Positions 2,013 to 34,772 of a DNA stretch of 34,772 nucleotides are shown here, piece by piece. The notes below the pieces were generated by a model, which was not told the origin of the DNA, searched no databases, and saw nothing but the letters and a program-made list of their open reading frames with translations. The position numbers and the translations under genes are program-made. Where the stretch lies: positions 1 to 34,772 of the forward strand of contig CAVYBR010000006.1 of the NCBI GenBank assembly GCA_963766765.1, given 5' to 3'. This DNA is from an uncultured Actinomycetota bacterium (GTDB taxonomy: Bacteria > Actinomycetota > Actinomycetes > Mycobacteriales > Geodermatophilaceae). The number at the start of each line of letters is the position of its first letter. Positions within the stretch are counted from its first letter, which is position 1.

Positions 2013-2026
2013 TTGCCGTTGACCTG

Positions 2027-11601: not shown

Positions 11602-11779
11602 CCGAACGCAACTGGGCGCCCGCGTGGCAAACTTCAACGCAAGTCACTGGACGCCCAGAATTACGAGGTGAATGTTCTCCAAGTGGCTGTGACAGCGAAT
11701 CCTGACGTCGTTTGCTCGTGAAAGCTAGCGGCACTTGGGCGGGGGCTGAGGTGAGATCTCCGCGACTTTTGATGTCAGC

Positions 11780-13950: not shown

Positions 13951-14679
13951 TCATTTGTCTGTGCCTTCGATCAGAGCGTCCCAGTCGATCGTCGTACTGC
14001 CAGGGCTTCCCTCGCCCAGGACGAACCTGCTCGGGTCGCCCGCCGCGCGGGCGCCTGAGGCGAGCCAGGCAGCGAGTCCGGGTGGATTCCGTCGCTCCAG
14101 TTCGTCGAGGAAGGCACGACGCGTCTCAATGATGCGAGAGCGCTCCGCCGGGGATTTAGCCGTCTCCAGAGCAGAGAAGCTGGCCCGCCACGCCAAGCAC
14201 AAGGCATCATCACTCAGCTCGGCAGCCTCGGTTTCTGCAGAGACGGTCAACTCGGCTTCCCACAGAGTGCCGGCGGGCGCAGTCTCCGGCAGGTGCTCGT
14301 CCGGATCCCGGCGCTGCGGCAGTTGGCCCTGCTCTCTGAGCCAACCCATCCAACGACGCGCGACGTACGGCGATCCACCGACGGCCAGCGCCAGCACGAG
14401 CACCGCCATCGGCGCGCCCAGGAGCGACCCGAGTCCGACGAACGCTACGGTGCCTGCTCCGGAGACAACCGTATTCGTGGCAACCAAAGGCCACTGCTGC
14501 CGCTTGACCTGGGTGCCGTCTGCCGGTGTCAGGGCGACCATGGTCGCGGCAGCTCCGGTCAGCGCGGCCAGGACGAACAACAGGATCTGCGTCGACCGCT
14601 CCCAGGTGAGTGCGGCCATCGCGCCGGTCACCCCGACGGCGCCGCAGAAACTCAGCCAGGCAACCCGATGCACCCTCAT
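13951..14679 (-). CDS. Hypothetical 4-TM membrane protein with a conserved cytoplasmic C-terminal domain (paralogue A).
   Basis: 243-aa ORF from an internal Met of ORF 13951..15078. The ATG is preceded by GGAGGAGAAGG. It is paralogous to the disrupted copy at 16355..17109 and shares the ...LSDEALCLAWRASFSAL...RSRIIETRRAFLDELERR...AAWLASGARAAGDPSRFVLG...IDWD... blocks. Confidence 0.55.
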   Translation of the reverse strand: MRVHRVAWLSFCGAVGVTGAMAALTWERSTQILLFVLAALTGAAATMVALTPADGTQVKRQQWPLVATNTVVSGAGTVAFVGLGSLLGAPMAVLVLALAVGGSPYVARRWMGWLREQGQLPQRRDPDEHLPETAPAGTLWEAELTVSAETEAAELSDDALCLAWRASFSALETAKSPAERSRIIETRRAFLDELERRNPPGLAAWLASGARAAGDPSRFVLGEGSPGSTTIDWDALIEGTDK

Positions 14680-15151
14680 CCTTCTCCTCCAACCTACGAG
14701 GCTGTTGCTGCAAGCCTGTTCTGAAACACGAGTGACCCCTAGGGCAACGACCGGCGAACACATCGCCCGCAGATCGCCGACGTCCGGCAATGAAGGCGGC
14801 CCGCAAGGAAGATCGTGCGCGTGCCCATGCGGACGTACGCCGGGGAAGGCGTTGCGAGGCATCCGACGGTCCGATCGGGGGCCCTCACGGGCGTGCTCTG
14901 GCTGCTGTTCATCGGCCTCCACACCACCTTCCTCGTGCAGCACTGGCTCGGCGTCGAGGGCATGCCGCGGCACTACGCCTCGTACGGCGCCAACCGCGCA
15001 TCGGCGGACAACCTGCTGGACGCCGGCTACGACGAGGGCCGCGTGGAGAATCTGGAAAAGAACATCGAAAACGAACACTCCGACACCCGGGCCGCGGCGG
15101 TGACTCCAGGGAATGAAAGGCCCGGGATGGGCGACGAGGATCGGGCAGTTG

Positions 15152-16298
15152 TCAGGCCAACGGTCCTCGATGAGTGTGAACCCGGAGGCCGGGAGTTGGC
15201 GGGTCTGCGGCCAGGTTTGTCAGGTTCGCCAGTACGTCTTGGTAGGCCTTGTTGAAGCTGGCGATGCCGTTGTCCTCCAGGGTGCGACCGACGGCGGTCA
15301 TGTCGACGCCGACGGCCGCCAGCCGCTGCATCAGTTCGGCTGGCTTGCGGCACACCGTTGTCGACGGTGCGAGCCATCGTGCCGTGATCCTCGAAGGCGG
15401 CGATGGTTGCTTCGGGCAAGGTCGTGACCGTTTCGGGGCCGATGAGTTCCTCGACGTAGCGGGTGTCGCGGTCCTTGGGGTTCTTGGTGGACGTCGAGGC
15501 CCACAGCGGACGCTGGACATCTGCGCCCAGGCCGGCGAGCCGGTGCCAGCGCTTGGTAGAGAACTGTTCGGTGAACAACCGGTAGGCCAGCTTGGCCTGC
15601 GCGACCGCGGCCTGGCCGCGCAGGGCGAGCGCCTCGTCGGTGCCGAGCGCCTCGAGTCGCTGGTCGACCTCGGTGTCGACCCGGCTGACGAAGAACGAGG
15701 CGACGCTGCTGACGGTCGAGGGATCGCCGCCGTTGGCGGTGAACTTCTCCAGCCCGGACAGGTAGGCCTCGATGATCTCGGCGTACCGGGACAGGCGAGA
15801 ACAACAGCGTCACGTTGATGCTGGCACCCTCGCCGATCAGTGCTTCGACGGCGGTGACGCCTTCCGCAGTTGCGGGAATCTTCACGAGCAGATTGGGTTG
15901 GGCGATACGACGGCGCAGCCACCGCGCGGCGGCGATCGTTGCCGGGCGCGTCGTGAGCCAGCTCGGGAGACACCTCCACCGACACGAACCCGTCGATGCA
16001 GTCACCCCCGTCGAAGACCGGTCGCAGTACGGCGAGCGCCTGACTGGCGTCGGAGATGACCAGCTCCCAGTAGGCCTCGTCCACCGACTTGCCGGCGGCC
16101 ATCAGCTCCGAGAACTGTTCGTCGTAGTCGTGGGAGCCGGTGATACTCCGGGCGAAGATCGTCGGGTTCGCGGTGACGCCGCGGATCCCGTCGGCGACCA
16201 TGCGCGCCAGGGTGCCGTCACGCAGAGTAGGCGCGGGTGAGGTTGTCCAGCCATGGGCTCTGCCCGAAGTGGCCGTAGAGGTGTTCCAGCTTGGTCAT
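15152..16298 (-). pseudogene. tal: Transaldolase (tal) with at least 4 frameshifts and one internal stop.
   Basis: Transaldolase blocks are spread over three minus-strand frames. They run from MTKLEHLYGHFGQSPWLDNLTRAYSA(stop) and LRDGTLARMVADGIRGVTANPTIFARSI...VSVEVSP, through ...[35 protein letters not shown]... and ...[42 protein letters not shown]..., to the C-terminal ...[31 protein letters not shown]. Confidence 0.7.
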
Positions 16299-17411: not shown

Positions 17412-18650
17412 TTAGGCGTGGGCCTCCGCGCCGGATGGAAGGTCGCGGGCGGGCCAATCGAGGAGTCGTGCGCCGAGGACGGCGATGTGCAGCGTGAACC
17501 GTTGTGCCGGGTCGCCCGGGTCGTGTCCGGTCAGGGTCTTGACCTTGTCCAGCCGGTAGGTGACGGTGCGGACCGACATGTTCAGGCGCCGGGCCGCCTC
17601 GGTGGCGACCTCACCGGTCGCGAAGTACGCCTCGAGGGTCTGCAGCAACGGCTCTGCGCCGCCGCGGGCCTGGGTCAGCGGGCCGAGCACGGCCTGGATG
17701 AGATCGACGATGGCGGCCTGGTCGCGGATCAGAACCCGGTACACGAGCATGTCTTCTGCGTCGACGACAGCGGCGTCGAGTTGCAACCGGTCGGCCAGCG
17801 TCAGCGCTTCCCGCGCCTCTTCGTAGGAGCGGGCGATGCCGTAGGAACCGGGGTAGGGCCGGCCCGTCGTGACGCGCCATTCGCGGCCCGACCGGTGCCG
17901 GATCAACGCGTCGTGGATCAGGGTCCCCACACCCTGGGTGATGGTGCGGGGGGCCGTGCTGGGGGCTGTCGCCGGGATCAAGCACCACGAGCAGGCCTTC
18001 TTTGGTGGCGACGAGAACCTCACGGTCCCCGAAACGGTCGAGAATGAAGGCTTCCAGCATGCTCACGCTCGTGTCGCCCTCGGGGAGGCTGTCGGCAGGG
18101 CGGGCCAGGACCACCTGGTGCGGCCGGCCGAGGTCGAGCCCGAACGGTTCGGCGCGCTCCACGATCCGGCGACGTCAGGGTCGCCGCGCAGCAGGTCGTC
18201 GATCAGTTCGCGGCGCAGCGATTCCTCCTGCCGGATCAGGTGCTGAGTGGCGATCTGGTAGCTGTCGACGAGGACGGCGATCGCTTCACCGACAGCGCGA
18301 AGTACCGCTTGTGCAGAGGCGCGGACGGTGTCGCGGTCGCGGTACGGCACGACGTCGGGCAGGTCCCGCCACATCCGCCAGGCCGCGGACAGGTAGAGGT
18401 CGACGACCCGTCCGGCAGGGATGCCCTGTTCGGCGGCGCGACGCCCGAGTTCACGCACGATCGCCAATTCGTGGTCACGGGGCCGTCGCCCCGAGATGGC
18501 AGCGTCCGCGAGCAGGGTGAGGTATTCGACCAGCAGCTCGAGCGGCGCCTGGGAGTCTCCAGCGGCCGCTTGTGCGATCGCCGTCAGCCATGCTTCATCG
18601 GCGCTGTTCGCGGCGGAACCCGGCCACCGCAGCCCCCCGGACTCGCTCAT
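17412..18650 (-). pseudogene. PucR/CdaR-family transcriptional regulator, split over three frames.
   Basis: The N-terminal part is ORF 18063..18650. The middle part is ORF 17611..18162 (...EAFILDRFGDREVLVATKEGLLVVL...). The C-terminal PucR HTH is in ORF 17412..18023 (...LEAYFATGEVATEAARRLNMSVRTVTYRLDKVKTLTGHDPGDPAQRFTLHIAV...). Confidence 0.6.
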
Positions 18651-18828
18651 GCCGCTCCCCTCGCACTGGATCTACGCAGGTGCTCGGGCCATGTCCCAGT
18701 AGAGCATCGTTGCCGGACGTCGGCCATAAGCCTGGTCACAGGTTCGCCGATCGGCGCCCTACCTGTCTGACCGCTGGAACGGCACAGTCGAAGCCGTGGG
18801 GCACCCAGAGCTGAAGCGGAGCGGCGAC

Positions 18829-19821
18829 ATGACGAAGGCAACTGCTGTGAACAATCGGGGTCGTCGGGCAGTTGTGGTCGGGGTTGACGGCTCGGTATCC
18901 GCGCAAGGCGCGCTGGCCTGGGCCGCCGCCGAGGCGATCGTCGAGGCATCGTCCCGCTGCGCATCGTTCACGCCTTCAGTTGGCCGATGATCGGCAACCC
19001 CCTGGGCATGGACCTTCGCCGGAGACATGAACGTCGGCCTGCAGTCCGCGGCCGAGTGGATCCTCACCGAGGCGGAGGCACACGCGCGCGAAGCTGCGCC
19101 CGACATCAAGGTCACCGCTAACCTGTTGGTCGGTCCCGCGGCGCCGACGCTACTGAACGAGGCACAGGATGCCGAACTGGTGGTCGTGGGCAGCCGTGGC
19201 GTCGGCGGCTTCCGCGGCCTGCTGGTGGGGTCGGTGAGCTCTACCGTGGCTGCGCACGCCCCGTGTCCGGTGATCGTCGTTCACCCGCACCGAGACGGTA
19301 CGGCGTTCCCCGCGTCGCCGACCGGCCGGGTCGTGATAGGCGTCGACGGCTCGGAGGTCTCGGCCGCGGCGATCCGTTTCGCCTTCCAGGAAGCGGCACG
19401 CCTCCGCGTCGGAATCACCGCCGTACATGCCGCGATGCCGACCCGTCAGCACCCGTCACTGCGCGTCCCCGCGGACATCGTCGAGCAGGTCGACCGGCAA
19501 CTGTTCGCCGAGGCGATGGAAAGCAAGCGGGTACTCATCCCCGGCATCGACGTAAAGACCAAACTCGTCCACAGCCACCCGGTCCAGGCGCTGCTCGACG
19601 AAGCTGACGGCGCCGAGCTGCTCGTGGTCGGGTCGCACGGGCGCGGTGGCTTCACCGGCATGTTGCTGGGCTCGATCAGCCATGCAGTGTTGCAACACGC
19701 GGCCTGCCCCGTGGCCGTCGTCCGTCCACACCTGACCCCGGCCCTGAAACCCTCATCTGCGGGCCGTCTCCAGCTTGCGATCGCGTCATCGGATCGAGCT
19801 CGCGGATCTGAAGGAGCTGTC
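18829..19821 (+). pseudogene. Tandem universal stress protein (two UspA domains) with frameshifts near the N-terminus and no stop codon before aceE.
   Basis: MTKATAVNNRGRRAVVVGVDGSVSAQGALAWAAAEA is in ORF 18796..18990. The rest of domain 1 and domain 2 (...[34 protein letters not shown]... and ...[35 protein letters not shown]...) is in the 19027.. frame, which continues without a stop into aceE. Confidence 0.55.
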
Positions 19822-22549
19822 ATGACACCGACACCGCAAGGCCTGCCGGAAAGCCTTGGTTTGCACAGCCAACTGCTCGACCTGGACCCGTCGGAGACGC
19901 AGGAGTGGCTGGAGTCGATCGATCAGGTCGTCGATCATGCTGGGCAGAACAGGGCGCGGTACCTGCTGCTCAGCATCCTGCAGCGAGCTCGCGATCGTCG
20001 CGTCGGTGTCGCGAATCTGCGCAGTACCGACTACCTCAACACGATCGCTCCCGATGCCGAGCCGGCCTTTCCCGGCGACGAGCACGTCGAGCGGCGGATC
20101 CGGGCCTACAACCGCTGGAACGCCGCAGTCATGGTCCATCGCGCGCAACGGCCCGGCATCGGCGTCGGCGGGCACATCTCCACCTACGCCTCCGCCGCGG
20201 CGCTGTTCGAGGTCGGCTTCAACCACTTCTTCCGCGGCCACGACGCCCCCGGCGGCGGCGACCAGATCTACTTCCAAGGCCACGCCTCCCCCGGCATCTA
20301 CGCTCGCGCGTTCCTGGAAGGACGACTCACCAGCGACCAACTCGACGGGTTCCGGCAGGAGATCTCCCACGCCGGCAGGCGGCGGGTTGCCGTCGTACCC
20401 GCACCCCGGCTGATGCCGGACTTCTGGGAGTTCCCGACGGTCTCGATGGGCCTCGGCCCGCTCAACGCGATCTACCAGGCCCGCTTCAACCGGTACCTGC
20501 ACAACCGCGGCCTCAAGGACACCAGCCAGCAGCGTGTGTGGGCATTCCTCGGCGACGGCGAGATGGACGAGCCGGAGTCCCTCGGCGCGATCGGAGTGGC
20601 GGCCCGCGAAGAGCTCGACAACCTGACCTTCGTCGTCAACTGCAACCTGCAGCGCCTCGACGGCCCGGTCCGCGGCAACGGCAAAATCATCCAGGAACTC
20701 GAGTCGTACTTCCGCGGCGCCGGCTGGAACGTCATCAAGGTGATCTGGGGCCGCGAATGGGATCCGCTGCTGGCCGCCGACACCGACGGCGCGCTGCTCA
20801 ACCTGATGAACACCACACCCGACGGCGACTTCCAGACCTACAAGGCCGAGTCCGGCGCGTTCGTGCGCGAGCACTTCTTCGGCCGCGACCCGCGCACCGC
20901 GGCCATGGTCGAGGGTCTGTCCGACAACGAGATCTGGAACCTCAAACGCGGTGGTCACGACTATCGCAAGCTGTACGCCGCGTACCGGGCGGCCACCGAG
21001 CACACCGGACAGCCGACGGTGATCCTGGCCAAGACCATCAAGGGATGGACCCTGGGCTCCCACTTCGAGGGCCGCAACTCGACCCACCAGATGAAGAAGC
21101 TCACCCTCGACGATCTCAAGGGCTTCCGGGACCGGCTGTTCCTCGATATCCCCGACTCGGCGCTCGACGCGGTCAAGCCGCCGTACTACCGGCCGCCGGA
21201 GGACTCGCCGGAACTGGACTACCTGCACGAGCGGCGCCGCGCGCTCGGCGGCTATCTGCCCGCCCGCAGAGTCACCAGCAAACCGCTCACGCTGCCGGGC
21301 GGGGCGGCGTACGCGGTCGCACGGCGGGGCTCCGGCCGGCAGGAGGTCGCCACCACGATGGCGTTCGTCCGGCTGCTCAAGGACCTCATGAAAGACCCGC
21401 AGATCGGGCACCGATTCGTGCCGATCATCCCCGACGAGGCCCGCACCTTCGGCCTGGACTCCCTCTTCCCGTCCAAGAAGATCTACTCCCCGCACGGACA
21501 GCACTACCTGTCGGTGGACCGCGAGCAGATGCTGAGCTATCAGGAAGACGTCCGAGGTGTCCTCCTGCACGAGGGCATCACCGAGGCCGGCTCCGCCGCG
21601 TCCTGGACAGCCGCGGGTACGTCGTACGCCACCCACGGCGAGCCGATGATCCCGCTGTACATCTTCTACTCGATGTTCGGGTTCCAGCGCACCGGCGACC
21701 AACTCTGGGCGGCCGCGGACCAGATGACCAGAGGGTTCCTGCTCGGCGCCACCGCCGGCCGAACCACCCTGAACGGTGAAGGCCTGCAACACCAGGACGG
21801 CCATTCGTTGCTGCTGGCATCGACCAACCCAGCCTGCATCGCCTACGACGCCGCCTATGCGTTCGAGCTCGGCCACATCACCGCCGACGCCCTCCGGCGC
21901 ATGTACGGCGAACCACGACCAGGCGAAGACCAGAACGTCTTCTACTACCTCACCCTCTACAACGAACCGATCACGCAGCCGGCCGAACCCGATCACGTCG
22001 ACATCGACGGCATTCTCGCCGGGATGCATCGCTACTCCCCCGCCCCCGATGGCGACGGCCCGAAGGCGCAAATCCTTGCCTCCGGCATCGCGATGCCCTG
22101 GGCGCTGGAGGCGCAACACCTCCTGCACACCGACTGGGGCGTCCAGGCCGACGTGTGGTCGGTGACGTCCTGGACCCAACTACGCCGCGACGCCCTCGCC
22201 GCTGAGGAGTGGAACCAGTCCCACCCCGACCAGCCTCCCCGCGTTCCCTACGTCACCCGGCGGCTTGCCGGACACCGCCGGACCCGTCCTCGCAGTCTCG
22301 GACTGGATGCGCGCCGTACCCGACCAGATCGCTCCGTTCGTCCGCAGGCCCTGGACGTCCCTGGGCACCGACGGATTCGGCCACTCCGACACCCGCGCCG
22401 CGCTGCGCCGCCACTTCGGAATCGACGCGCAATCAATCGTCGTGCGGACCCTGCAGCAACTGGCCGATTCCGGCGAACTGGACGAGTCGGTGCCGCTGTC
22501 GGCCAGAACGACGTACCTAGTGCCTCTCCAAGAAACGTTGGGGTTGTAA
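19822..22549 (+). CDS. aceE: Pyruvate dehydrogenase E1 component (homodimeric AceE type). There is one frameshift near 22272, and the last codons and the stop are supplied by the IS630 terminal repeat.
   Basis: ATG with GAAGGAG upstream. About 810 aa of continuous AceE-like sequence ([37 protein letters not shown]... through ...[25 protein letters not shown]...PYVT). The C-terminus continues in frame +1 (ORF 22265..22549: ...[54 protein letters not shown]...). Confidence 0.85.
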
Positions 22550-23697
22550 CCGTGTCGGGTTGACCGGTCTGGTGGTGTGTCTGAAGGCTGGCTGTCGGAG
22601 GTGGTGATGGCTCGACAGCCTGAGGTGTTCGTGCGCTCGCTGGAACCGGACGAGGCGCAGCGGTTGGTGAAGATCACGCGGACCACGAGGGATCGGGTCC
22701 GGTTGCGGCGGGCCGGGATCGTGCTGGCGTCGGTTCAGGGCCGCAGCGCCGTTGAGGCGGCGGCGATGTATGCGATGAAGCCGCAGTACGCGCGGGAGGT
22801 GATCCACGCGTTCAACGAACAGGGGTTCGCGGCGCTGGACCCAAAATGGAGCGGGGGCCGACCGAAGAGGTTCGGCCCCCCGGTTCGTGAAACCGTCTGC
22901 CGGGTCGCCAAGACCCCGCCTCAGCGGTTGGGCCGGCCGTTCACGACGTGGAGCCTGTCGAAGCTGGTCGAGTACCTGGCCGAGCACAAGAGCATCGCTA
23001 TCAGCACCGAGTCGGTGCGCCAGATCCTGCGCGCGGCGGGGATCAGGTGGCAGGCGACCAAGACCTGGAAGGGCAGCCGGGACCCCGACTTCACCGCCAA
23101 GATGGCCCGGGTTCTCGAGCTGTACGACCATCCACCAGCCGACGGGCGAGTGGTCTGCGTCGACGAGTTCGGTCCGTTGAACCTGCAGCCCCGGCCGGGC
23201 AGGGGCTGGTTTCCCACCGCTCGTCCGGACCGGTTGCGGGCCACGTTCAACCGCACCGGCGGAGTCCGGCAGATGTTCGCCGCACTCGACCTGGCCACCG
23301 GCCAGATGTTCTACCGGTTCCGCGACCGCAAACGCTGGCTGGAGTTCCTCGGGTTCCTCAAGCAACTCCGGACCCGATTCCCCAGCGGGAAACTGCACGT
23401 GATCTGCGACAACTTCTCACCCCACAAGAAGGCCGAGGTCGTCGACTGGTGCCGCGCCAATGATGTGGAACTGGTGTTCACCCCGAGCAACGCGTCGTGG
23501 TTGAACTGGATCGAGTGCGAGTTCACCGCCCTGCGCTACTTCACCCTCGACGGCAGCGACTACCCCAGCCACACCGCCCAAGAAACAGCCATCGCCGGCT
23601 ACGTCCGCTGGCACAACAAACACGCCCAACCCAAACGACACTTCGCCGTCGACTCCAAGATCCGCCGCCCCGATTACCTACCCAACGTTGCTTGACG
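22530..23697 (+). mobile_element. IS630-family insertion sequence with short terminal inverted repeats containing AACGTTGGG.
   Basis: Left end ...AAACGTTGGGGTTG (22533-22546) and right end CCCAACGTTGC (23681-23691) are inverted complements. A single intact transposase ORF lies between them. It is inserted directly at the aceE 3' end. Confidence 0.65.
22607..23695 (+). CDS. IS630-family DDE transposase. The start is at MARQPEV; an alternative upstream start is at 22577.
   Basis: Intact ORF with an N-terminal HTH (..LRRAGIVLASVQGRSAVEAAAMYAMKPQYAREVIHAFNEQGFAAL..). The DDE_3 core has VVCVDEFGP..., HVICDNFSPHKK...VELVFTPSNASWLNWIECEF. Confidence 0.8.
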   Translation: MARQPEVFVRSLEPDEAQRLVKITRTTRDRVRLRRAGIVLASVQGRSAVEAAAMYAMKPQYAREVIHAFNEQGFAALDPKWSGGRPKRFGPPVRETVCRVAKTPPQRLGRPFTTWSLSKLVEYLAEHKSIAISTESVRQILRAAGIRWQATKTWKGSRDPDFTAKMARVLELYDHPPADGRVVCVDEFGPLNLQPRPGRGWFPTARPDRLRATFNRTGGVRQMFAALDLATGQMFYRFRDRKRWLEFLGFLKQLRTRFPSGKLHVICDNFSPHKKAEVVDWCRANDVELVFTPSNASWLNWIECEFTALRYFTLDGSDYPSHTAQETAIAGYVRWHNKHAQPKRHFAVDSKIRRPDYLPNVA

Positions 23698-26559: not shown

Positions 26560-27639
26560 ATGGCAACCGTCTCGTTCAAGGGAGCCACCCGGATCTACCC
26601 CGGTTCCGACACCCCCGCCGTCGACGGGCTGGATCTGGACATCGCCGACGGCGAATTCGTGGTCCTCGTCGGCCCGTCGGGGTGCGGCAAATCCACCTCG
26701 CTGCGGATGCTCGCCGGGCTCGAAGAGGTCAACGAGGGCAAGATCTACATCGGCGACCGCGATGTCACCGACTTTCCGCCGAAGGCGCGTGACATCGCGA
26801 TGGTGTTCCAGAACTACGCGCTCTACCCACACATGACGGTCGCCGACAACATGGGCTTTGCCCTCAAGATGCAGAGCCTGCCCAAGGACGAACGAGTCAA
26901 GCGCGTCACCGAGGCGGCCAAGCTGCTCGGCATCGAGGAGTACCTCGACCGCAAGCCGAAGGCACTGTCCGGTGGTCAACGCCAGCGCGTCGCGATGGGC
27001 CGCGCCATCGTCCGTAACCCGCAGGTCTTCCTGATGGACGAGCCGCTGTCCAACCTCGACGCCAAGCTCCGGGTCCAGACCCGCACGCAGATCGCCGAAC
27101 TGCAGCACCGGCTGGACGTCACCACCGTCTACGTCACCCACGACCAGATCGAGGCGATGACGATGGGCGATCGCGTCGCCGTTCTGAAGGACGGCCGGCT
27201 GCAGCAGGTCGACACGCCACTGGGCCTCTACGACCGGCCGAAGAACGTGTTCGTCGCAGGCTTCATGGGATCGCCGGCGATGAACCTCATCGAGGCCCGA
27301 ATCACCGACGGCGGCGCGAAGATCGGCGACTACGTCGTCCCGATCGAGCGCAGCCTGCTGGCCAAGGCCGACAACGACCAGACGCTGATACTGGGAATCC
27401 GGCCGGAGGCCTTCCACCTCGCGGACGAAGGGCTGCCCGTGAAGGTCGGGGTGATCGAGGAACTCGGCTCGGACGCGTTCCTCTACGGCACCGCGGCCCA
27501 CTCCACCCTCAACCAGCACATCATCGCGCGCATCGGCACCCGGCTGAACAGCGAGACGGGCGCCATCGTGCATCTCGCTGCGCAGCCCGACAAGCTGCAC
27601 CTCTTCTCGGCCTCGACCGGGCTGCGCCTCACGGCCTGA
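26560..27639 (+). CDS. msiK: Sugar ABC transporter ATP-binding protein (MalK/UgpC/MsiK type) with a C-terminal TOBE regulatory domain. Intact.
   Basis: 359-aa ORF with RBS GGAAGGAAGGAAG. It has Walker A GPSGCGKST, the signature LSGGQRQRVAMGRAI, Walker B VFLMDEPLSNLD and the H-loop VTHDQ. The gene symbol is my best guess from similarity to the actinomycete multiple-sugar-import ATPase. Confidence 0.85.
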   Translation: MATVSFKGATRIYPGSDTPAVDGLDLDIADGEFVVLVGPSGCGKSTSLRMLAGLEEVNEGKIYIGDRDVTDFPPKARDIAMVFQNYALYPHMTVADNMGFALKMQSLPKDERVKRVTEAAKLLGIEEYLDRKPKALSGGQRQRVAMGRAIVRNPQVFLMDEPLSNLDAKLRVQTRTQIAELQHRLDVTTVYVTHDQIEAMTMGDRVAVLKDGRLQQVDTPLGLYDRPKNVFVAGFMGSPAMNLIEARITDGGAKIGDYVVPIERSLLAKADNDQTLILGIRPEAFHLADEGLPVKVGVIEELGSDAFLYGTAAHSTLNQHIIARIGTRLNSETGAIVHLAAQPDKLHLFSASTGLRLTA

Positions 27640-28075
27640 GGCTTTCGTAGGCCTGGCCTTCGTGTTCCTGTCGTCCGTTCGCAGTCCGTTTCAGCCCCCA
27701 GAACCGACGCCAGACCAGCTCAGGTTCAGGTGGCAGCCTGCGGGCATCGACAGTTCGGGCGATCGTCTCTTCATGCTGGGCAGTCGCGAGGGCGATCGAG
27801 GCGTGCCGCGCGAGGATGTGCGCGACCGCTTCGTCATCCTCGCTGAACGCGCTGGGTTTGGGCTGCAGATCCGGGGAACGCCCGACGGTATCCTCCGCGG
27901 TGCTCAGTGGGACCTTCAGCACGCTGCGCAGGCCCGAGCGCCCGGGGATGGACTCAGGCGAGTGGTTCGCGGTCGGTCTTTGTAACGGAGGGTGCGGGTC
28001 AGCCGATAGAGCCAGCGTCGAGGCGGGATGGCGCCCACGGGCCAAGAGCTGGGGGGCATCGGGCCAGGGTGTCAT
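27629..28075 (-). CDS. Hypothetical protein. A weak GAF/ANTAR-like C-terminal helix is possible. Low confidence.
   Basis: 148-aa ORF overlapping the msiK stop by 11 nt. Composition is only moderately protein-like. Confidence 0.2.
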   Translation of the reverse strand: MTPWPDAPQLLARGRHPASTLALSADPHPPLQRPTANHSPESIPGRSGLRSVLKVPLSTAEDTVGRSPDLQPKPSAFSEDDEAVAHILARHASIALATAQHEETIARTVDARRLPPEPELVWRRFWGLKRTANGRQEHEGQAYESLRP

Positions 28076-28253
28076 CCCGCCTCCGTGATGGGTGCTCGGC
28101 GTTGAGCAGAGTCGCTATCGCGAGGCGGCCTCACCCACGTGCTCGGACAGCCGCTCCTCCAGCGTGCGGATCTGCAGGCAAACCTCCACGGCCCGCCCCA
28201 TGAAGCTGACGCGGACTCCTTTTGGAGGTCATCCGCCGCGGTCTTGTTGGGCG

Positions 28254-29288
28254 TCAGTCGCGGGGTCTGTCTTCGAGCTGTTCGCCGTGAGATTCGCAGG
28301 CGTGGCGCTCGGCCCGCGCGGCGAGGAGCTTGACGCCGGCCAGCGAGGCGATGACGGTGACGATCAGTACGCCGGCGATCACGCTCAAGGAGACGCCTGT
28401 GCTGATTTCGGCGACATGGAGGGGCTGCGCATCGTTGAGGAACGGGAGGTTGTTCTCGTGCAAGCGCGTGCAGGATGAGCTTGACTCCGATGAATCCGAG
28501 GATGGCTGCGAGGCCGTAGGACAGGTAGATGAGGCGGTCCAGTAGTCCGTCGATGAGGAAGTACAGCTGCCGCAGCCCCAGCAGGGAGAACGCGGTGGCG
28601 GTGAACACGATGAAGACGCTCTGGGTGAGGCCGAAGATCGCCGGGATGGAGTCCAGCGCGAACAGGACGTCGGTGCCGCCGATGGCCACCATGACCAGCA
28701 GCATCGGAGTCATCACCCGGCGGCCCTGGACGATGGTGAACAGCCTGTCGCGGTCGTAGGTTTCAGAGGTCCGCAGGAACCGCTTGGCGAGGCGGACGAT
28801 GACGTTGTTCGCCGATCGGCCGTTCGTCGTCCCGGGTTTGAGCATTTGGCCGGCGGTGACGAGCAGGATCAGTCCGAAGATGTAGAACACGAAGGCATAG
28901 GAGTTGACGAGCGCGGCGCCGAGGAAGATGAAAGCGGTGCGCGCGAGGAGAGAGAAGACGATGCCGAACAGCAGCGCCTTCTGCTGGTCGGCGCGCGGCA
29001 CTTTGAAGCTGGCCATGATGATGAGGAACACGAAGAGGTTGTCGACCGACAAGCGCCTTCTCCGTGAGGTAGCTCGGCGAAGTATTCGCTGCCCATTGCC
29101 GCGCCGCCCAGGAGCCAGACGCCGACGCCGAACAGGACGGCGATGCCCACGTAGATGGCTGACCAGATTGCTGCCTCGCGGAGCGTCGGGGTGTGTGCGG
29201 TGCGTACATGGAAGAAGAAGTCGAAGAGCAGCAGGGCAAGGATCCCGAGGATCGTCAGAGCCCAGACAAGTGGGGGAACATCCATCAA
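28254..29288 (-). pseudogene. TerC-family integral membrane protein gene with at least 3 frameshifts.
   Basis: TerC blocks occur in order across frames. They are MMDVPPLVWALTILGILALLLFDFFFHVRTAHTPTLREAAIWSAIYVGIAVLFGVGVWLLGG...EYFA, then YLTEKAL, then ...VDNLFVFLIIMASFKVPRADQQKALLFGIVFSLLARTAFIFLGAALV...DVLFALDSIPAIFGLTQSVFIVFTATAFSLLGLRQLYFLI...LSYGLAAILGFIGVKLILHAL, then HENNLPFLNDAQPLHVAEISTGVSLSVIAGVLIVTVIASL (ORF 28254..28463). Confidence 0.65.
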
Positions 29289-30708
29289 GCATCGGTCGCT
29301 GTCACGGCCGCCTCGTGGTGGTAGCGCGCCAGCTGTTCGGCGCTGACGCGTTTCAGCTCGGCTGCCGGGAACGGCGCCAGGAGTTGCCAGCCCACCTCGA
29401 GGGTGTCGGTCAGAGTACGGCGGGCTGGTCCTTGGTCGAGGTAGGTGCGTTCGAAGGCGGCGGCGAAGGCCAGGTAGCGGCGGTCCTCTGTGGGCAGTCC
29501 GCTCTCGCCGACGATCGACATCAGCCGGCGGACCTCGCGGCCGCGGGCGTAGCAGGCGTACAGCTGGTCGGCCAGGCCGCGGTGGTCGTCGCGGGTCTTG
29601 CCGGCGCCGATGCCTGCATTCATCAGCCGCGACAGTGACGGCAGTACGTCGATCGGTGGCTGGATGCCTTGCCGGTCGAGTTCACGCGACAGCACGATCT
29701 GGCCTTCGGTGATGTAGCCGGTGAGGTCCGGGATCGGGTGGGTGATGTCGTCGTCGGGCATGGTGAGGATCATCAGTTGGGTCAGCGATCCGGTGCCGCC
29801 GCGGACTCGGCCGGCCCGTTCGTACAGCGAGGCCAGGTCGGTGTACATGTAGCCGGGGTAGCCGCGGCGGCCCGGCATCTCCTCCCGGGCGGCGGAGATC
29901 TCGCGCAGCGCTTCGCAGTAGGCGGTCATGTCGGTCATCACGACCAGGACGTGCCGGTGCTGTTCGAAGGCCAGGTATTCGGCCATGGTGAGCGCGACCC
30001 GCGGTGTCAGCAGCCGTTCGATGGTGGGGTCGTCGGCCAGGTTCAGCAGCAGGACGCTGCGCGCGGCGGCGCCACCGGTCGAGGAACTCGGTGCGGAAGA
30101 ACTCCGCCTCCCGGCGGGTGACGCCCATGGCGGCGAAGATGACCACGACCTCGGCGTCGTCGCCGGGCACGCGTGCCTGCGCGGCGATCCGGGCGGCGAG
30201 GCTGTTCGCGGGCAGCCCGGCGCCGGAGAAGATCGGCAGCTTCTGGCCCCGGACGAGCGTGATGAGTCCGTCGATCGCCGAGACACCGGTTTCGATGAAC
30301 TGGTCGGGGTGGGCGCGGGTGATCGGGTTGAGCGGCAGGCCGTTGACGTGGCGGTAGTCGTCCGGGACGGGTTGCGGGCCGCCGTCGCGTGGCCTGCCGG
30401 CTCCGTCGAGGACGCGGCCGAAGTAGTCGGTGCCGACGCCGGTCCTGGCGGCGCGGCCACGGGTGAGTACGGAGGTTTCGCGGCGACCGATGCCGACGGT
30501 TCCACCGAAGACCTGGACGATCGCCAGTCGACCCGTCGAGCTCGAGCACCTGGCCTTCCCGGACCGGCCCGTCGCCGGTTTCGACCTCGACCAGTTCGCC
30601 GTACCCGACGCCGTCCATCCCGTCCACGATGATGAGCGGCCCGGCGACCCGGGTCACGGTGCGGTGCCCGACGGTGAAGGGCGGCTTGGGAGCTTCGGTG
30701 GTGGTCAC
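29285..30708 (-). pseudogene. atpB: A/V-type ATP synthase subunit B with at least 3 frameshifts.
   Basis: The GTG start overlaps the subunit A stop (GTGA). The N-terminal [60 protein letters not shown] is in ORF 30043..30810. ...[26 protein letters not shown]... is in ORF 29682..30170. ...[83 protein letters not shown]...[38 protein letters not shown]... is in ORF 29285..30505. Confidence 0.75.
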
Positions 30709-32508
30709 AGCGAGCTCATTTCTTCGGCGATCCGCTGGGTCAGGCGGCGTGGCGGAGTCGTCGACGTTGTCGGGGGGCCAGCGGCGCATCCGGCCGAGTT
30801 CGGCCAGCACGCTCGCGGCGGTGATGTCGGTGATGGCGACGCCGCGCTGGAGCGCCGACGCTCATCGCGGCGCCGGCCTCGTGGACGACGCGCAGCATGG
30901 CCAGCAGCCGTGGTGGTGGACAGGACGCGTCGAGGTCGTCGAACGAGGACTGTTGAAGCAGGTCTTCTCGCAGGGCTTGCCCGATGCGCAGGGTGATCCG
31001 TTGTTCGGCGGCCAGCGCTTCGACGCCGAGCAGGGACACCACTTCCTGCAGGGCGCCTTCGTCTTGCAGGGCTGCCGCCGCCCAGCGGCGCAGCGGCGAC
31101 CAGTCCGGGCCGATCTCCCGGTCGAACCATGCGTCCAGGCCGTACTGCGAGAAGCTGCGCAGCCAGTTCACCGCAGGGAAGTGACGCTGCCGGGACAGGG
31201 CGGTGTCGAGCGCCCAGAAGCAGCCCGCGAGCCGCAGGCTGTTCTGGGTGATGGGCTCGGAGAAGTCACCGCCGGCCGGTGAGACGGCGCCGACGATCGT
31301 CACCGACCCGGTGCGTTCCGGCGTGCCGAGGCATTGGACCGCGCCGGCCCGTTCGTAGAAGCCGGCCAGACGGGTGGCCAGGTAGGCGGGGTAGCCGTCC
31401 TCGGCGGGCATCTCCTCCAGCCGGCTCGACACCTCGCGCAGGGCCTCGCCCCAGCGGCTGGTCGAGTCGGCCATCATGGCGACGTCGTAGCCCTGGTCGC
31501 GGTAGTACTCCGCGATCGTGATCCCGCTGTAGATGCTGGCCTCGCGGGCCGCGACCGGCATGTTGGACGTGTTCGCGATCAGCACGGTGCGTTCCATCAG
31601 CGGGGCGCCGGTGCGCGGATCGGTCAGCTGAGGGAACTCCTCGAGCACCTCGGTCAGTTCGTTGCCGCGCTCGCCGCAGCCGACGTAGACGACGATGTCG
31701 GCGGTCGAGAACTTCGCCAGGGCCTGTTCCAGCACGGTCTTGCCGGTCCCGAAACCGCCCGGGATGATGGCGCTGCCGCCGCGGGCGACCGGGAAGAGCA
31801 GGTCGAGGACCCGCTGGCCGGTGACCAGCGGCACGGTGAGCGGCAGCCGGCTCGCGACCGGGCGAGCGCGGCGTAGCGGCCAGCGACGCATCATCGTCAC
31901 CGGGTGCCCGTCGATGTCGACGACAGGATCGAGGACGGTGGCCGGTCCGGGGCGGACCGCGGTGACGACGCCGGCCTGATCCGGCCGGCACCAGGATCCG
32001 GTGCTCGATGGCGCGTCCCTCCGGAACCGATCCGAGCAGGTCGCCGGGTCCGACCCGGTCCCCGACCTCGACGGCGGGCCGGAAGTCCCACCGGCGGTCG
32101 CGGTCGAGCCGCGGCGGGTCGGCACCCTCTGGCGATGTACAGGTTGCCGTCCGTGCTCAGGTTCTCCAGCGGTCGCTGGGTGCCGTCGAGGATGCCGCCG
32201 AGCAGCCCGGGGCCGAGCTCGGCGTACAGCGGTTCGCCGGTCGCCTCGACCGGTTCGCCGACCCGCAGTCCGGTGGTGTCTTCGAAGACCTGCATCACCA
32301 CCAGGTCGCCGTCGATCTTGATGACCTCACCCAGGAGCCGTTCGGCGCCGACCCGCACCACGTCGAACAGGCGGGTGTGGGGCAGGTCGGTGGCGCTGAC
32401 CACCGGGCCCGGAGATCTTGACCACCCGGCCGGTGTCGGTCGGTCACCTGCCTGGCCGGTCCGGCGTCCCCGGCTGGCTGGCTCGGTGCGTGGTCTGGTC
32501 GTGGTCAT
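30705..32508 (-). pseudogene. atpA: A/V-type ATP synthase catalytic subunit A, with multiple frameshifts.
   Basis: ATG at 32508 preceded by GGAGG. N-terminal ...[82 protein letters not shown] is in ORF 31897..32508. The core [69 protein letters not shown]...[68 protein letters not shown]...[26 protein letters not shown]... is in ORF 30740..32125. The C-terminal ...[12 protein letters not shown] is in ORF 30705..31130. Confidence 0.75.
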
Positions 32509-32848
32509 GGCGTGCCTCCGCTGGGGGTGAAGGTGATCTGGTAGCCGATCGCGCGGGCCAGCAGGTCACGCAGCGCGGCGTCTCGGCCGCGGAGACGTCG
32601 CCGTCCTCGTCGGGGAGGCTGAGGATGAGCGGGGTGGTCTGCCTGGTCCAGGTCGCGCGGACCTGCGGTGGGACGAGCGGACCAGAGGGCCCCGTGGACG
32701 GCGATGACCGCGGCCTGGCCGTCCGCGATCGCTGTGGTCGACTGCGGCGACGGTCTCGTCCGCGTCGACGGCGGTGACGGTCCGTGCGCCGCCGAGGCGG
32801 AAGCCCGATGGCGGTCGCGGGGGTGGCGACGACGAGTGCGTCGGTCAT
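32505..32848 (-). pseudogene. A/V-type ATPase subunit F, frameshifted.
   Basis: ATG at 32848 preceded by AGGAAGG. N-terminal MTDALVVATPATAIG resembles the subunit F start (M.IAVIGD.DT..GF). The C-terminal ...LRDLLARAIGYQITFTPSGG ends 3 nt before the subunit A start. Confidence 0.4.
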
Positions 32849-32877
32849 GGCTGGTCCTTCCTGGCCGGCGTCCGTGC

Positions 32878-33895
32878 TCATCGCGACGAGCAGGTCTCGT
32901 GACGTCGTGAGCCGGGAGCGGTGCCGGCGAGCAGGAGCCGGACGGTGCGCGCCTCGCACTCGGCGGCGAGGACGTAGCCGACCGGCACGTCGGCGCCGAG
33001 GGGGTCGCCGCGGCGCAGCCCGCGCACCGCTTGGCGCCACAGCGCCGACGTCCAGGTCCCATTCGAGCGCGGCGAGGTCTCCGTCGCGGAGGTGCCGTTC
33101 GAGGGCTGCTCGCCAGCTGGGGCGCGCGGCCACGAGCGGGCTGCGGATCGCCGCGCCGGGCGGCCAGCAACGCCGGCTCGGGTGACCAGCCCGGCGGGGA
33201 GCAGCCGCGGCGTCTCCAGCGCCGGGTCGCGCAGTACGGCGAGCAGGTTGGCCCGGTCGCACTCGGCCTGGACCAGCTCCAGGACCGGGCGGGCGGCCCG
33301 GCCGACCCGTTCCAGCCGGTCGGTCCAGCCGTCGATGGCGGCCGCCGCGACCGTGGTCTCGAACTCGTCCGGGTCGCCGTTCAGCTCATACCGTTCCCAG
33401 GCCGCCGGCAGCGCCCGGGCGGTCAGCGGGTCCGGGAGCCGGTGGGCCGCCAGCCGCAGGACAGCCGTCGCGCCGTCAGGCGCTGCGGCGATGTCGGCGG
33501 CGGCTCGCTGGTCGAGCGCACCGACACCCATCACCGCGGCGAGCCGGTCCGGCGCCGGCTGCCCGGTGCGTGCGCCGCGCAGCAGCGCAAGCGTGTCGTG
33601 CAGGTCGTGCCGGGCCAGCAGTACCCCGACCACGGTGCCGGCGATGCCGCCGTACAGTCCCCGCACTCCGCGCAGCAGGTCGCGCAGCCGGCGCCCGACC
33701 GCGTCGAGGAGCCGGTCGTCGTCCGCCTGGTCGCGGTTCAGGTAGGGGCGGTAGGTCGACGACGCGCGAGCCGTTCGGCGGCCGCGCTCGCGGGAGAGTC
33801 CGGCGAGCTGGTCGTAGTCGACAGGGCCGAGCAGGGCGGGCAGCCGCGCGCGCAGCCGGGTGTTGCCGGCGATGAAGTCGGGCGCGGGGCGTCAT
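32878..33895 (-). pseudogene. A/V-type ATPase subunit C (d-type, about 339 aa) with a frameshift immediately after the start codon and another near the C-terminus.
   Basis: The ATG overlaps the subunit E stop (ATGA). A +1 frame gives ...DFIAGNTRLRARLPALLGPVDYDQLAGLSRE...TYRPYLNRDQADDDRLLDAVGRRLRDLLRGVRGLYGGIAGTVVGVLLARHDL..., continuing into ORF 32878..33666. Size and position between E and F fit subunit C. Confidence 0.45.
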
Positions 33896-34458
33896 GAGTC
33901 CTGATCCCAGGAACGGCTCAGTTCGGCGCGGATCTCCGGCCAGATGTTCGCCAGCCGGGTGAGGTAGGTGTTGTCGACGTAGCGGCCTTGGTCGTCCTCG
34001 GCGATGGCGCCGCCGTGTTCGAGGTCGGCGACGATCTGGACCGTGGCTTCGGGCCTCAGCGTCGCGGCGTCGGCTGGGTGAACGTGGACTGTCGTGGCCT
34101 GCGGCAGCGCCGTGACAGCTTCGGCCAGGCAGGCGGCTGCCATTGCCGGGCCGTCCGGGCTGCCGGGCAGCGGCGAGCAGTTGCTCGCGTACCTGTGTCG
34201 AGGACCTCCTCCAGCGCGTCGTCGCGCGCGGTCCGGACGGCCCGACGGGCACTTGAACCGCGCGGTGATCAGCAGATTCTCCGCCTCCTGCCGGGCTGCG
34301 GTTTCGGCCGCTGTCACGACGTCGGCGTGGATCTTCGCTGCCCGTTCGTGCGCCTCGGCGAGAAGCTGAGCTGCCTGCCGGCGCCTGTCCTGCTGGGCCT
34401 TCTCGTGCTCGGCTGCTCCTTCTTCCTCCAGTGCGGTGAGCAGATCGCGCAGCGCCAT
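33892..34458 (-). CDS. A/V-type ATPase subunit E. The central segment is possibly corrupted by compensating frameshifts.
   Basis: 188-aa ORF. N-terminal helical MALRDLLTALEEEGAAEHEKAQQDRRRQAAQLLAEAHERAAKIHADVV... and C-terminal ...HGGAIAEDDQGRYVDNTYLTRLANIWPEIRAELS fit subunit E. Residues about 70-115 are junk-like. Confidence 0.5.
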   Translation of the reverse strand: MALRDLLTALEEEGAAEHEKAQQDRRRQAAQLLAEAHERAAKIHADVVTAAETAARQEAENLLITARFKCPSGRPDRARRRAGGGPRHRYASNCSPLPGSPDGPAMAAACLAEAVTALPQATTVHVHPADAATLRPEATVQIVADLEHGGAIAEDDQGRYVDNTYLTRLANIWPEIRAELSRSWDQDS

Positions 34459-34772
34459 CAGTTGCCGCCGAGCAGCAGGATGATCATCGCCGCGACCGCG
34501 AACCCGAGGATGACCAGTGTCTCCGGGATGGCGACGAGCAGGATCGCGCGGCCGGTCAGTTCTGGCTTCTCCGCTACCGCGCCCATGGCTGCGGCGCCGA
34601 TGCGCGCCTGGGCGTAGCCGGCGGTCTCGACGTTGGCGTAGCGGTCCTGGGCGTCGCGGAGCGTGGGACCGCTTGCCGAACAGGGCGTCGGCCTCGTCGA
34701 AGAGGGGCAGGACGCCGTTAGCCGCTGGGCCTCGGCGAAGATCCTGTCGAGGTTCTTCTCGGTCTCACCCAC
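34458..34772 (-). pseudogene. A/V-type ATPase proteolipid subunit K (c-ring), 3' part. It is frameshifted and the 5' end lies beyond the window.
   Basis: C-terminal ...GYAQARIGAAAMGAVAEKPELTGRAILLVAIPETLVILGFAVAAMIILLLGGN is a typical proteolipid helix pair. The N-terminal part of the ORF is out of frame. The stop overlaps the subunit E start. Confidence 0.55.

What the first reader, a model, noticed from the sequence alone, without database searches (positions are those of the whole stretch)
29285..34772. A/V-type ATPase operon (K-E-C-F-A-B, no D subunit in the window) in a high-GC actinobacterium, with every gene frameshifted
Actinobacteria normally rely on the F-type ATP synthase. A complete A/V-type (ntp/atpV-like) operon is an accessory, probably horizontally acquired trait. 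Here the gene order K-E-C-F-A-B is intact and has translationally coupled overlaps (ATGA and GTGA junctions). However every gene has frame disruptions, and no D-subunit gene follows B. TerC is immediately adjacent instead. If the frameshifts are real, this is a decaying redundant ATPase operon. If they are errors, it is a functional V-type ATPase in an unusual host.
Basis: partly seen in the sequence, partly recalled or inferred. Interest (0 to 1): 0.6.

Follow-up and report, generated by a model that had tools for sequence, protein, structure and literature searches.

The report
Kribbella V-type ATPase operon, artefactual frameshifts
This is the ordinary, conserved V/A-type rotary ATPase operon of the soil actinobacterium Kribbella, and its many "frameshifts" are almost certainly assembly errors from merging reads of several related strains, not gene decay.

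Summary
The genes are real. On the minus strand the order is K (5'-truncated), E, C, F, A, B, then TerC. Pfam and about 90% nucleotide identity to syntenic Kribbella operons support this. The missing D subunit is not an anomaly. In every actinobacterial relative examined the order is D-(124-aa ORF)-I-K-E-C-F-A-B, so D and I lie beyond the contig end. TerC after B is native.

The operon carries 28 frame-disrupting indels, and 24 of them are 1-nt insertions. Deleting the window-private bases restores full-length E, C, F, A and B with no stop in 1685 codons. dN/dS equals that of intact relatives. The window has only 22 private substitutions, against 60-318 per real genome. It is closer to every relative than they are to each other, and its GC (0.7229) matches their majority consensus (0.7225).

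In 26 of 31 cases contig-wide (19 of 22 in the operon), the inserted base is the alternative allele of the adjacent polymorphic site. Simulation gives 35% (P about 1e-6 for the operon set). Both alleles of a SNP have been written in series, which indicates a consensus built from mixed haplotypes. aceE and transaldolase on the same contig are also frameshifted.

Verdict: a known operon with artefactual frameshifts, of low interest.

The parts
34625..34772 (-). Fragment of a SpoVK/Ycf46/Vps4-type AAA+ ATPase (GETEKNL...LFDEADALFGKRS...DRYANVE). It has two frame changes of its own and is joined to K codon ~22. It does not belong to the operon and is either a chimeric contig end or a rearrangement junction.
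   Evidence: All Kribbella loci lose homology at 34619-34624. Pfam AAA gives 0.0018. Homologues reach 80% identity and are named SpoVK/Ycf46/Vps4 AAA+. The fragment is not within 10 kb of the operon in any relative.
34458..34619 (-). K subunit (c-ring proteolipid), residues 22-74 plus the stop codon. It is in frame, and the first 21 codons are missing.
   Evidence: PF00137 at 4e-13. 98% identity to residues 22-74 of Kribbella K.
33892..34458 (-). E subunit (peripheral stalk). It carries three private +1 insertions (about 34254, 34196, 34171), which give a 27-codon out-of-frame stretch inside an otherwise open ORF.
   Evidence: The repaired 187-aa protein hits PF01991.
32878..33895 (-). C subunit (d/AC39, rotor socket). 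It carries nine private insertions: eight of 1 nt and one of 2 nt.
   Evidence: PF01992. Event list. The repaired 335-aa protein is stop-free.
32505..32848 (-). F subunit (central stalk). It carries three +1 insertions and one -1 deletion. Two further events (+1, -1) lie in the C/F junction at 32851-32873.
   Evidence: tblastn finds two frames. Events. The repaired protein hits PF01990 at 1.6e-11.
30705..32508 (-). A subunit (catalytic, P-loop GGFGTGKT). It carries six +1 insertions and one -2 deletion. The stretch 31980-30859, which is the nucleotide-binding core, is free of indels.
   Evidence: Pfam PF02874/PF00006/PF22919. 95-98% identity to Kribbella A subunits. Events. The repaired 580-aa protein is stop-free. 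The best solved homologues are the P. horikoshii and T. thermophilus A subunits.
29285..30708 (-). B subunit (non-catalytic). It carries two +1 insertions (30529, 30080) and one in-frame 3-nt difference.
   Evidence: Pfam. Three frame segments at 82-95% identity. Events. The repaired 470-aa protein is stop-free.
28250..29285 (-). TerC-family membrane protein. Its ATG overlaps the B stop codon by 1 nt (TGATG). It carries three +1 insertions (29075, 29052, 28463). The 3' end coordinate is approximate.
   Evidence: The same B/TerC 1-nt overlap is seen in L002.

Best explanation
The window is a complete 34,772-nt public contig from a Kribbella-like actinobacterium. Its right end carries the 3' two-thirds of the genus's conserved V/A-type rotary ATPase operon. 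The native order is D, a 124-aa coiled-coil ORF, I, K, E, C, F, A, B, usually followed by a translationally coupled TerC gene.

How the machine works (inferred from established knowledge of V/A-ATPases, not tested here):
- A3B3 is the catalytic head.
- D and F form the central shaft, and C is the socket on the K c-ring.
- E, probably with the 124-aa ORF as a G-like partner, forms the peripheral stalk.
- I is the stator and ion channel.

D, the 124-aa ORF, I and the first 21 codons of K are missing only because the contig ends there. The end is joined to 148 nt of unrelated AAA+ ATPase sequence.

The frameshifts are not biology. The sequence is a consensus built from reads of several co-occurring Kribbella haplotypes, most likely an error-prone long-read metagenome assembly (inferred). 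Where the haplotypes differ by a SNP, the consensus step wrote both alleles one after the other. This produced 1-nt insertions. In the real organisms the operon is most likely intact and under purifying selection.
For: Shown:
1. Identity and synteny. Collinear alignment at 88-90% nucleotide identity to 14 Kribbella genomes or MAGs covers the operon, TerC, the ABC gene, Band7, the epimerase and aceE.
2. D-first order in all actinobacterial loci, and D after B in archaeal and other loci.
3. In the operon, 24 of the 28 frame-disrupting events are 1-nt insertions. There is one 2-nt insertion and only three deletions, none longer than 2 nt. A sign test on a nearby tally, 27 or more insertions out of 29 indels, gives P=8e-7.
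4. Removing the private bases restores full-length E, C, F, A and B with 0 stops in 1685 codons. TerC is restored likewise.
5. Window-to-relative dN/dS is 0.15-0.20. Relative-to-relative dN/dS is 0.14-0.20.
6. Centroid behaviour:
   - Every window-to-relative distance is smaller than that relative's distance to nearly all other relatives.
   - The window has 22 private substitutions, against 60-318 per real genome. It carries the majority allele at 90.3% of variable sites, the highest value in the set.
   - It has the shortest root-to-tip length in the NJ tree.
   - It is 94.4% identical to the majority consensus of 15 relatives, but at most 90.4% identical to any single one. Its GC is 0.7229 and the consensus GC is 0.7225, while real genomes range from 0.689 to 0.711.
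7. Nature of the inserted bases in the operon:
   - 19 of 22 equal an alternative allele of an adjacent polymorphic column. Random insertions that were realigned gave 35% (P=1.2e-6).
   - All 22 lie next to a variable column, against a null of 70%.
   - Only 5 of 22 extend a same-base run, against a null of 53%.
   - Elsewhere on the contig, 7 of 9 further insertions follow the same rule.
8. Housekeeping genes on the same contig are also broken: aceE (+1 at about 22264, and -2/-1 at 20375/20404), transaldolase, a universal stress protein (USP) gene and the epimerase.
9. The ABC gene has a normal number of private substitutions and no indel.

Inferred: the sequencing platform. Insertion-dominated error is typical of PacBio CLR according to the proovframe preprint (10.1101/2021.08.23.457338).
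Against: - No reads, coverage values or assembly metadata could be obtained, so the mechanism rests on sequence signatures alone.
- Indel density is very uneven. It is about 5 per kb in the operon and 0 per 1.1 kb in the ABC gene. The mixture model explains this only by assuming that conserved regions recruited reads from more haplotypes.
- A few events do not follow the SNP-doubling rule: 3 of 22 in the operon, plus the short deletions.
- The AAA+/K junction could be a real rearrangement.
Confidence: 0.85

Rival explanations
1. Real pseudogenisation. The V/A-ATPase operon and TerC are redundant next to an F-type synthase, and they are decaying in this organism through accumulated frameshifts.
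For: The frameshifts are in the deposited record. They are much denser in the operon and TerC than in the neighbouring ABC gene. The operon is also truncated at K and joined to foreign sequence. An intact IS630-family transposase on the contig shows that mobile elements are present.
Against: - No nonsense codon appears in 1685 repaired codons, and no deletion exceeds 2 nt.
- Insertions outnumber deletions about 8 to 1, the opposite of the deletion bias known for bacterial pseudogenes (general knowledge).
- There are more private indels (28) than private substitutions (22).
- dN/dS is not elevated.
- Indels avoid the most conserved cores of A and B, which neutral decay would not do.
- The inserted bases are neighbouring SNP alleles.
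- Essential or core genes (aceE, transaldolase) are hit as well.
Confidence: 0.04
2. Generic residual long-read error. These would be random uncorrected indels at a poorly covered contig end, with no role for strain mixture.
For: Density is highest in the last ~6.5 kb of the contig, and the extreme end looks chimeric. Insertion-dominated raw error is described for PacBio CLR. Frameshifts in long-read MAGs are well documented.
Against: - Random errors would not choose the neighbouring SNP allele in 84% of cases, and would not avoid homopolymers.
- Random errors do not explain why the substitution pattern is centroid-like or why GC equals that of the genus consensus.
- Random error would also add private substitutions, and these are nearly absent.
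Confidence: 0.08
3. The frame changes are decoded. Programmed ribosomal frameshifting or transcriptional slippage would yield functional subunits from the sequence as deposited.
For: None beyond the fact that each out-of-frame segment still encodes conserved peptide.
Against: There are 28 sites with no common slippery motif, and mostly not in homopolymers. None of the sites is shared by any of 15 relatives, all of which have plain ORFs.
Confidence: 0.005

Closest known systems
V/A-type ATP synthase operon of Kribbella species (for example K. pratensis VKM Ac-2574 NZ_SODU01000004.1, locus L005; Kribbella sp. NPDC000426 JBEPDK010000001.1, locus L001)
   Same: The genes are the same and in the same order, with the same overlapping junctions and the same chromosomal neighbourhood (TerC, ABC ATPase, Band7, epimerase, aceE). 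Nucleotide identity is 88-90%. After repair, the A subunit is 95-97% identical and the B subunit 92-94%.
   Different: The window carries 28 private frame-disrupting indels in the operon. It lacks D, the 124-aa ORF, I and K codons 1-21. It ends in an AAA+ fragment. At variable sites it looks like a consensus of the genus rather than a single lineage.
Thermus thermophilus V/A-ATPase (PDB 3A5C, 5Y5X, 7VAI) and Pyrococcus horikoshii A-ATP synthase subunit A (PDB 1VDZ, 3M4Y)
   Same: The subunit repertoire is the same (I, K/L, E, C, F, A, B, D, G). The A subunit aligns end to end (E about 1e-192 to 1e-197). By inference the rotary mechanism is the same.
   Different: In Thermus (operon order from my own knowledge, not tested here) and in the archaeal and other bacterial loci fetched here, D follows B. 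In the actinobacterial clade D is the first gene. A-subunit identity to archaeal and Thermotogota homologues is only 54-64%.
Enterococcus hirae Na+-translocating V-ATPase, ntp operon (PDB 3VR2, 5ZEA)
   Same: The core order K-E-C-(F/G)-A-B is shared. The A subunit matches at E about 1e-181.
   Different: E. hirae NtpK is a double-hairpin 16-kDa proteolipid and ntpD follows ntpB (my own knowledge). Here K is a 74-aa single hairpin and D is first. Ion specificity was not tested here.
Frameshift artefacts in long-read metagenome assemblies and collapsed strain consensus (proovframe preprint 10.1101/2021.08.23.457338; Sereika et al. 2022, PMC9262707; Strainberry, PMC8302730)
   Same: Small indels break ORFs in otherwise conserved genes, are repairable against guide proteins, and come with a consensus-like sequence.
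   Different: I did not find the specific signature seen here, an inserted base equal to the neighbouring SNP allele, described in the passages I read. The platform and pipeline of this contig are unknown.

Membership tests
V/A-type rotary ATPase operon | Catalytic A subunit with N-terminal beta-barrel, P-loop nucleotide-binding domain and V/A-type C-terminal domain | tested here: met
   PF02874, PF00006 (1e-72) and PF22919. GGFGTGKT is visible in the ORF. Relatives also carry PF16886. The top PDB matches are A/V-type A subunits.
V/A-type rotary ATPase operon | Non-catalytic B subunit adjacent to A | tested here: met
   PF02874, PF00006 and PF22919. 82-95% identity to Kribbella B in three frame segments.
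V/A-type rotary ATPase operon | Accessory subunits C (d/AC39), E, F and the proteolipid K | tested here: met
   C: PF01992 at 72.5 bits. F: PF01990 at 1.6e-11. E: PF01991 at 24.8 bits, just above the 24.2 cutoff. K: PF00137 at 4e-13, although only residues 22-74 are present.
V/A-type rotary ATPase operon | Central-shaft subunit D and stator subunit I (a) present | tested here: not met
   tblastn with Kribbella D, the 124-aa ORF and I finds nothing in the window. In all relatives these genes lie immediately upstream of K, which is beyond this contig's end.
V/A-type rotary ATPase operon | Uninterrupted reading frames | tested here: not met
   The deposited sequence has 28 frame-disrupting indels in E, C, F, A and B. 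All frames are restored by removing the window-private bases.
Decaying (pseudogenised) operon | Nonsense substitutions and multi-nucleotide deletions accompany the frameshifts | tested here: not met
   There are 0 stops in 1685 repaired codons. The largest deletion is 2 nt.
Decaying (pseudogenised) operon | Relaxed selection or an excess of lineage-specific substitutions | tested here: not met
   dN/dS is 0.15-0.20, the same as between intact relatives. There are 22 private substitutions against 60-318 in real genomes.
Consensus artefact from mixed haplotypes | Indels sit at polymorphic sites, and the inserted base is the other allele | tested here: met
   19 of 22 in the operon and 7 of 9 elsewhere, against 35% in the realigned simulation (P=1.2e-6 for the operon set).
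Consensus artefact from mixed haplotypes | The sequence behaves as a centroid or consensus of related lineages | tested here: met
   Identity to the majority consensus is 94.4%. GC is 0.7229 against 0.7225 for the consensus.
Consensus artefact from mixed haplotypes | Read pile-ups show two or more haplotypes, with no read carrying both bases | not testable with these tools
   The source record and its reads could not be identified.

The most novel reading that the evidence does not exclude
The 1-nt insertions are real in one genome. In this reading, an unusual mutational process retained both alleles at mismatched sites and inactivated the V/A-ATPase operon very recently. An example would be faulty processing of heteroduplex DNA after repeated recombination between diverged Kribbella alleles. 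That would also explain the mosaic, consensus-like substitution pattern.
Probability: 0.03. Interest if true: 0.6.

Novelty: already known. Interest (0 to 1): 0.1.

Why it matters
There is little biological consequence. The operon is the standard V/A-type ATPase that NCBI and JGI already annotate in Kribbella and many other Actinomycetota. The practical value is cautionary. This public contig is a strain-collapsed consensus, and its frameshifts would be miscounted as pseudogenes. Its sequence would also sit misleadingly near the base of a phylogeny. The signature found here, an inserted base equal to the neighbouring SNP allele combined with centroid behaviour, is a reference-only test that can flag such contigs without reads. 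Two side observations may merit a note by specialists in rotary ATPases. One is that the D-first gene order is conserved across the actinobacterial clade. The other is that TerC is translationally coupled to B.

Tried and rejected
1. Identifying the source record. The look-up of encoding contigs for P0010 and for the intact ABC protein found nothing. The listing of cluster members returned no accession. The contig itself was not among the GTDB representatives.
2. Homopolymer slippage as the cause. Rejected, because only 5 of 22 insertions extend a same-base neighbour, against a null of 53%.
3. Alignment artefact, that is, real 3-nt insertions split into three 1-nt gaps. Rejected, because the stretches between the insertions encode the homologous peptide in the shifted frame. 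An example is SARRAVRTARDDALEEVLD in E. Segment-wise tblastn also gives 84-95% identity in different frames.
4. Uniform random sequencing error. Rejected, because density is uneven (0 indels in the 1.1-kb ABC gene) and the inserted bases are not random.
5. D or I located elsewhere in the window. None found.
6. The AAA+ fragment as a native neighbour of the operon. It is absent within 10 kb of the operon in all fetched loci.
7. Literature on actinobacterial V-type ATPases. Two full-text searches (one of them malformed) gave nothing specific to this clade.
8. Frame-plot scan of the left 18 kb. It shows frequent phase switching, but without references I could not separate frameshifts from short genes. 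The exception is transaldolase.
Full report
**What is there.** All genes of the finding lie on the minus strand. Pfam recognises four of them:
- the K proteolipid (ATP-synt_C, 4e-13);
- subunit C (vATP-synt_AC39);
- the catalytic A subunit (beta-barrel, nucleotide-binding and V/A C-terminal domains, 1e-72);
- the B subunit (3e-58).

E and F are recognised only after frame repair (PF01991 at 24.8 bits against a 24.2 cutoff; PF01990 at 1.6e-11). They are K/E TGATG, E/C ATGA, F/A ATGA and A/B GTGA. The TerC start codon overlaps the B stop codon by one base. First, K is not frameshifted but lacks its first 21 codons. The last 148 nt of the window (34625-34772) are a fragment of a SpoVK/Vps4-type AAA+ ATPase with two frame changes of its own. 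Second, E is still one open 188-aa ORF, because three +1 insertions within 84 nt restore the frame.

**Where it comes from.** A protein search with the long in-frame part of A found a 384-aa public protein that is 100% identical. It lies on a contig of exactly 34,772 nt (NCBI/ENA) and carries the same out-of-frame tail. The window is therefore a whole public contig, and the frameshifts are in the deposited record. The closest relatives are Kribbella species, at 95-98% identity in the A subunit. A scan of species-representative genomes returned 14 Kribbella genomes or MAGs. They are collinear with the window at 88-92% nucleotide identity across the operon, TerC, an ABC ATPase, Band7, an epimerase and aceE.

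**The "missing D" and the "unusual host".** In Kribbella sp. NPDC000426 the called genes are D (222 aa), a 124-aa coiled-coil ORF, I (647), K (74), E (187), C (335), F (113), A (580) and B (470), followed by TerC. tblastn of these proteins against all fetched loci shows the same D-first order in every actinobacterial locus: Kribbella, Nocardioides, Janibacter, Jiangella, a Mycobacterium MAG, Dermatophilaceae and Gaiellaceae. In the archaeal and other bacterial loci, D follows B. TerC follows B in most Kribbella loci. D, the 124-aa ORF and I have no match anywhere in the window. They would lie just beyond the contig end. A subunits at 70% identity or more occur in many actinobacterial genera and are already named V-type ATP synthase by NCBI and JGI. 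Neither the gene order nor the host is anomalous.

**The frameshifts.**
- *Event tally.* A 16-sequence alignment (window plus 15 relatives) gives the following window-private, frame-disrupting events in the operon: 24 one-nt insertions, one two-nt insertion, two one-nt deletions and one two-nt deletion. By gene the counts are E 3, C 9, the C/F junction 2, F 4, A 7 and B 2. TerC has three more one-nt insertions.
- *Repair.* Deleting the private bases yields full-length E, C, F, A and B with no stop in 1685 codons, and a full-length TerC.
- *Selection.* dN/dS between the repaired window and relatives is 0.15-0.20, the same as among intact relatives (0.14-0.20).
- *Verdict on decay.* An operon that had drifted long enough to collect 28 indels should also show nonsense codons, larger deletions, a deletion bias and many extra substitutions. 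None of these is seen.

**The sequence is a centroid.**
- Almost every window-to-relative distance, both dN and dS, is smaller than that relative's distance to the other relatives.
- Over 5204 shared columns the window has 22 private substitutions, against 60-318 for each real genome. It carries the majority allele at 90.3% of variable sites, the highest value in the set.
- It has the shortest root-to-tip path in a neighbour-joining tree (0.051 against 0.056-0.137).
- In sliding windows it is the nearest neighbour of many unrelated Kribbella genomes, and its own best match switches among 12 genomes.
- It is 94.4% identical to the majority consensus of the 15 relatives, yet at most 90.4% identical to any single one.
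- Its GC over the shared columns (0.7229) equals that of the consensus (0.7225) and exceeds every real genome (0.689-0.711).
- The window's private indels (28) therefore outnumber its private substitutions (22). Natural divergence does not produce that ratio.

**What the inserted bases are.**
- For 19 of 22 single-base insertions in the operon, the inserted base equals an alternative allele that relatives carry at the immediately adjacent column. At 30080, for example, relatives split C:8 and G:7, and the window reads CG.
- All 22 insertions lie next to a variable column. Only 5 extend a same-base neighbour.
- As a control I inserted random bases into real Kribbella sequences and realigned them. 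The corresponding fractions were 35%, 70% and 53% over 161 events. This gives P=1.2e-6 for the allele match.
- Seven of nine further insertions elsewhere on the contig obey the same rule.
- Writing both alleles of a SNP in series is what a pile-up or partial-order consensus does when reads from diverged haplotypes are merged and mismatches are represented as insertion plus deletion. That last step is my inference about the mechanism. The insertion-rich error profile of PacBio CLR reads and the frequency of frameshifts in long-read assemblies are documented.

**Consistency across the contig.** The artefact model predicts more insertions where the haplotypes differ more, and none where only one strain contributes. 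Insertions are dense in the variable genes E, C and F and in the N-terminus of A. They are absent from the conserved cores of A (31980-30859) and B (30080-29285). The ABC gene (26560-27639) has no indel and a normal count of private substitutions (20, against 23-40 for the other genomes, apart from the closely related pair L006/L022 with 4 and 2). Core genes elsewhere on the contig are also broken:
- aceE, with +1 near 22264 and a -2/-1 pair at 20375/20404;
- transaldolase, split between two frames;
- a universal stress protein (USP) gene;
- the epimerase.

That is implausible for a living cell and expected for a consensus artefact.

**Function of the real operon.** This part rests on established knowledge of V/A-ATPases and was not tested here. 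A3B3 hydrolyses or synthesises ATP. D and F form the rotating shaft, which docks through C onto a ring of 74-aa single-hairpin K subunits. E, probably with the 124-aa coiled-coil ORF in the position of Thermus subunit G, forms the peripheral stalk. I is the stator and ion path. The closest solved homologues of A are those of Pyrococcus horikoshii, Thermus thermophilus and Enterococcus hirae. Low dN/dS across Kribbella indicates that the operon is functional in the genus.

**Limits.** I could not obtain the accession, reads or coverage. The platform and pipeline are therefore inferred. The AAA+/K junction could be either a chimeric contig end or a real rearrangement. The left 18 kb of the contig lacks references, so its frameshift load is only partly assessed.

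**Verdict.** This is a known operon in a usual host with its native gene order. The frameshifts are, with about 0.9 confidence, assembly artefacts. The specific mixed-haplotype mechanism has about 0.85 confidence. Interest is low.

Noticed in passing
window 22550-23692 (+): An intact 381-aa IS630-family transposase ORF (DDE_3 plus HTH_32/HTH_28/HTH_29). It lies in a ~1.18-kb insertion between aceE and the epimerase that is absent from K. pratensis, where L005 positions 17023/17024 are contiguous.
   Followed up: partly
window 19800-22563 (+): aceE (pyruvate dehydrogenase E1) has a +1 insertion near 22264-22270 that puts its last ~100 codons in another frame. It also has a -2/-1 deletion pair at 20375/20404 that garbles about 10 codons in a conserved motif. 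Because no stop intervenes, the ORF runs on as a spurious 1178-aa fusion with an upstream tandem USP gene.
   Followed up: partly
window 15030-16201 (-): Transaldolase is split between at least two frames. Pfam TAL_FSA model positions 18-92 fall in one ORF and 144-243 in another. A PucR-type regulator at 17415-18671 also looks split.
   Followed up: partly
loci L001-L026 (relatives), operon start: In every actinobacterial locus the V/A-ATPase D gene is the first gene of the operon (D, ~124-aa coiled-coil ORF with no Pfam hit, I, K, E, C, F, A, B). In the archaeal, Thermotogota and Chloroflexota loci D follows B. I did not find this clade-specific order in the literature I searched.
   Followed up: partly
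window 29283-29287; L002 7036: The TerC start codon overlaps the B stop codon by one base (TGATG), both in the window and in the metagenome contig L002. This suggests TerC is co-translated as a tenth operon gene. TerC is absent after B in K. pratensis (L005), K. orskensis (L008) and L003.
   Followed up: partly
loci L015-L026, K gene: The 74-aa K proteolipid stays 90-97% identical across most of the non-Kribbella actinobacterial loci (80% in the Gaiellaceae MAG), where A is only 62-79% and E 31-56% identical to the Kribbella proteins. That is unusually strong conservation.
   Followed up: no
window 1-14000: GC is lower here (62-66%) than in the rest of the contig. The long ORFs mostly lack Pfam hits, apart from an EcsC-family protein at 62-1207. 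No fetched Kribbella locus reaches this part of the contig, so no homologous sequence was available to compare. This looks like an accessory island.
   Followed up: no
window 27629-28075 (-): Between TerC and the ABC gene lies a short ORF with a weak GAF_2 match (0.0036). It ends in ...HILARHASIALATAQHEETIARTVDARR, possibly a remnant of a GAF/ANTAR-type regulator.
   Followed up: no
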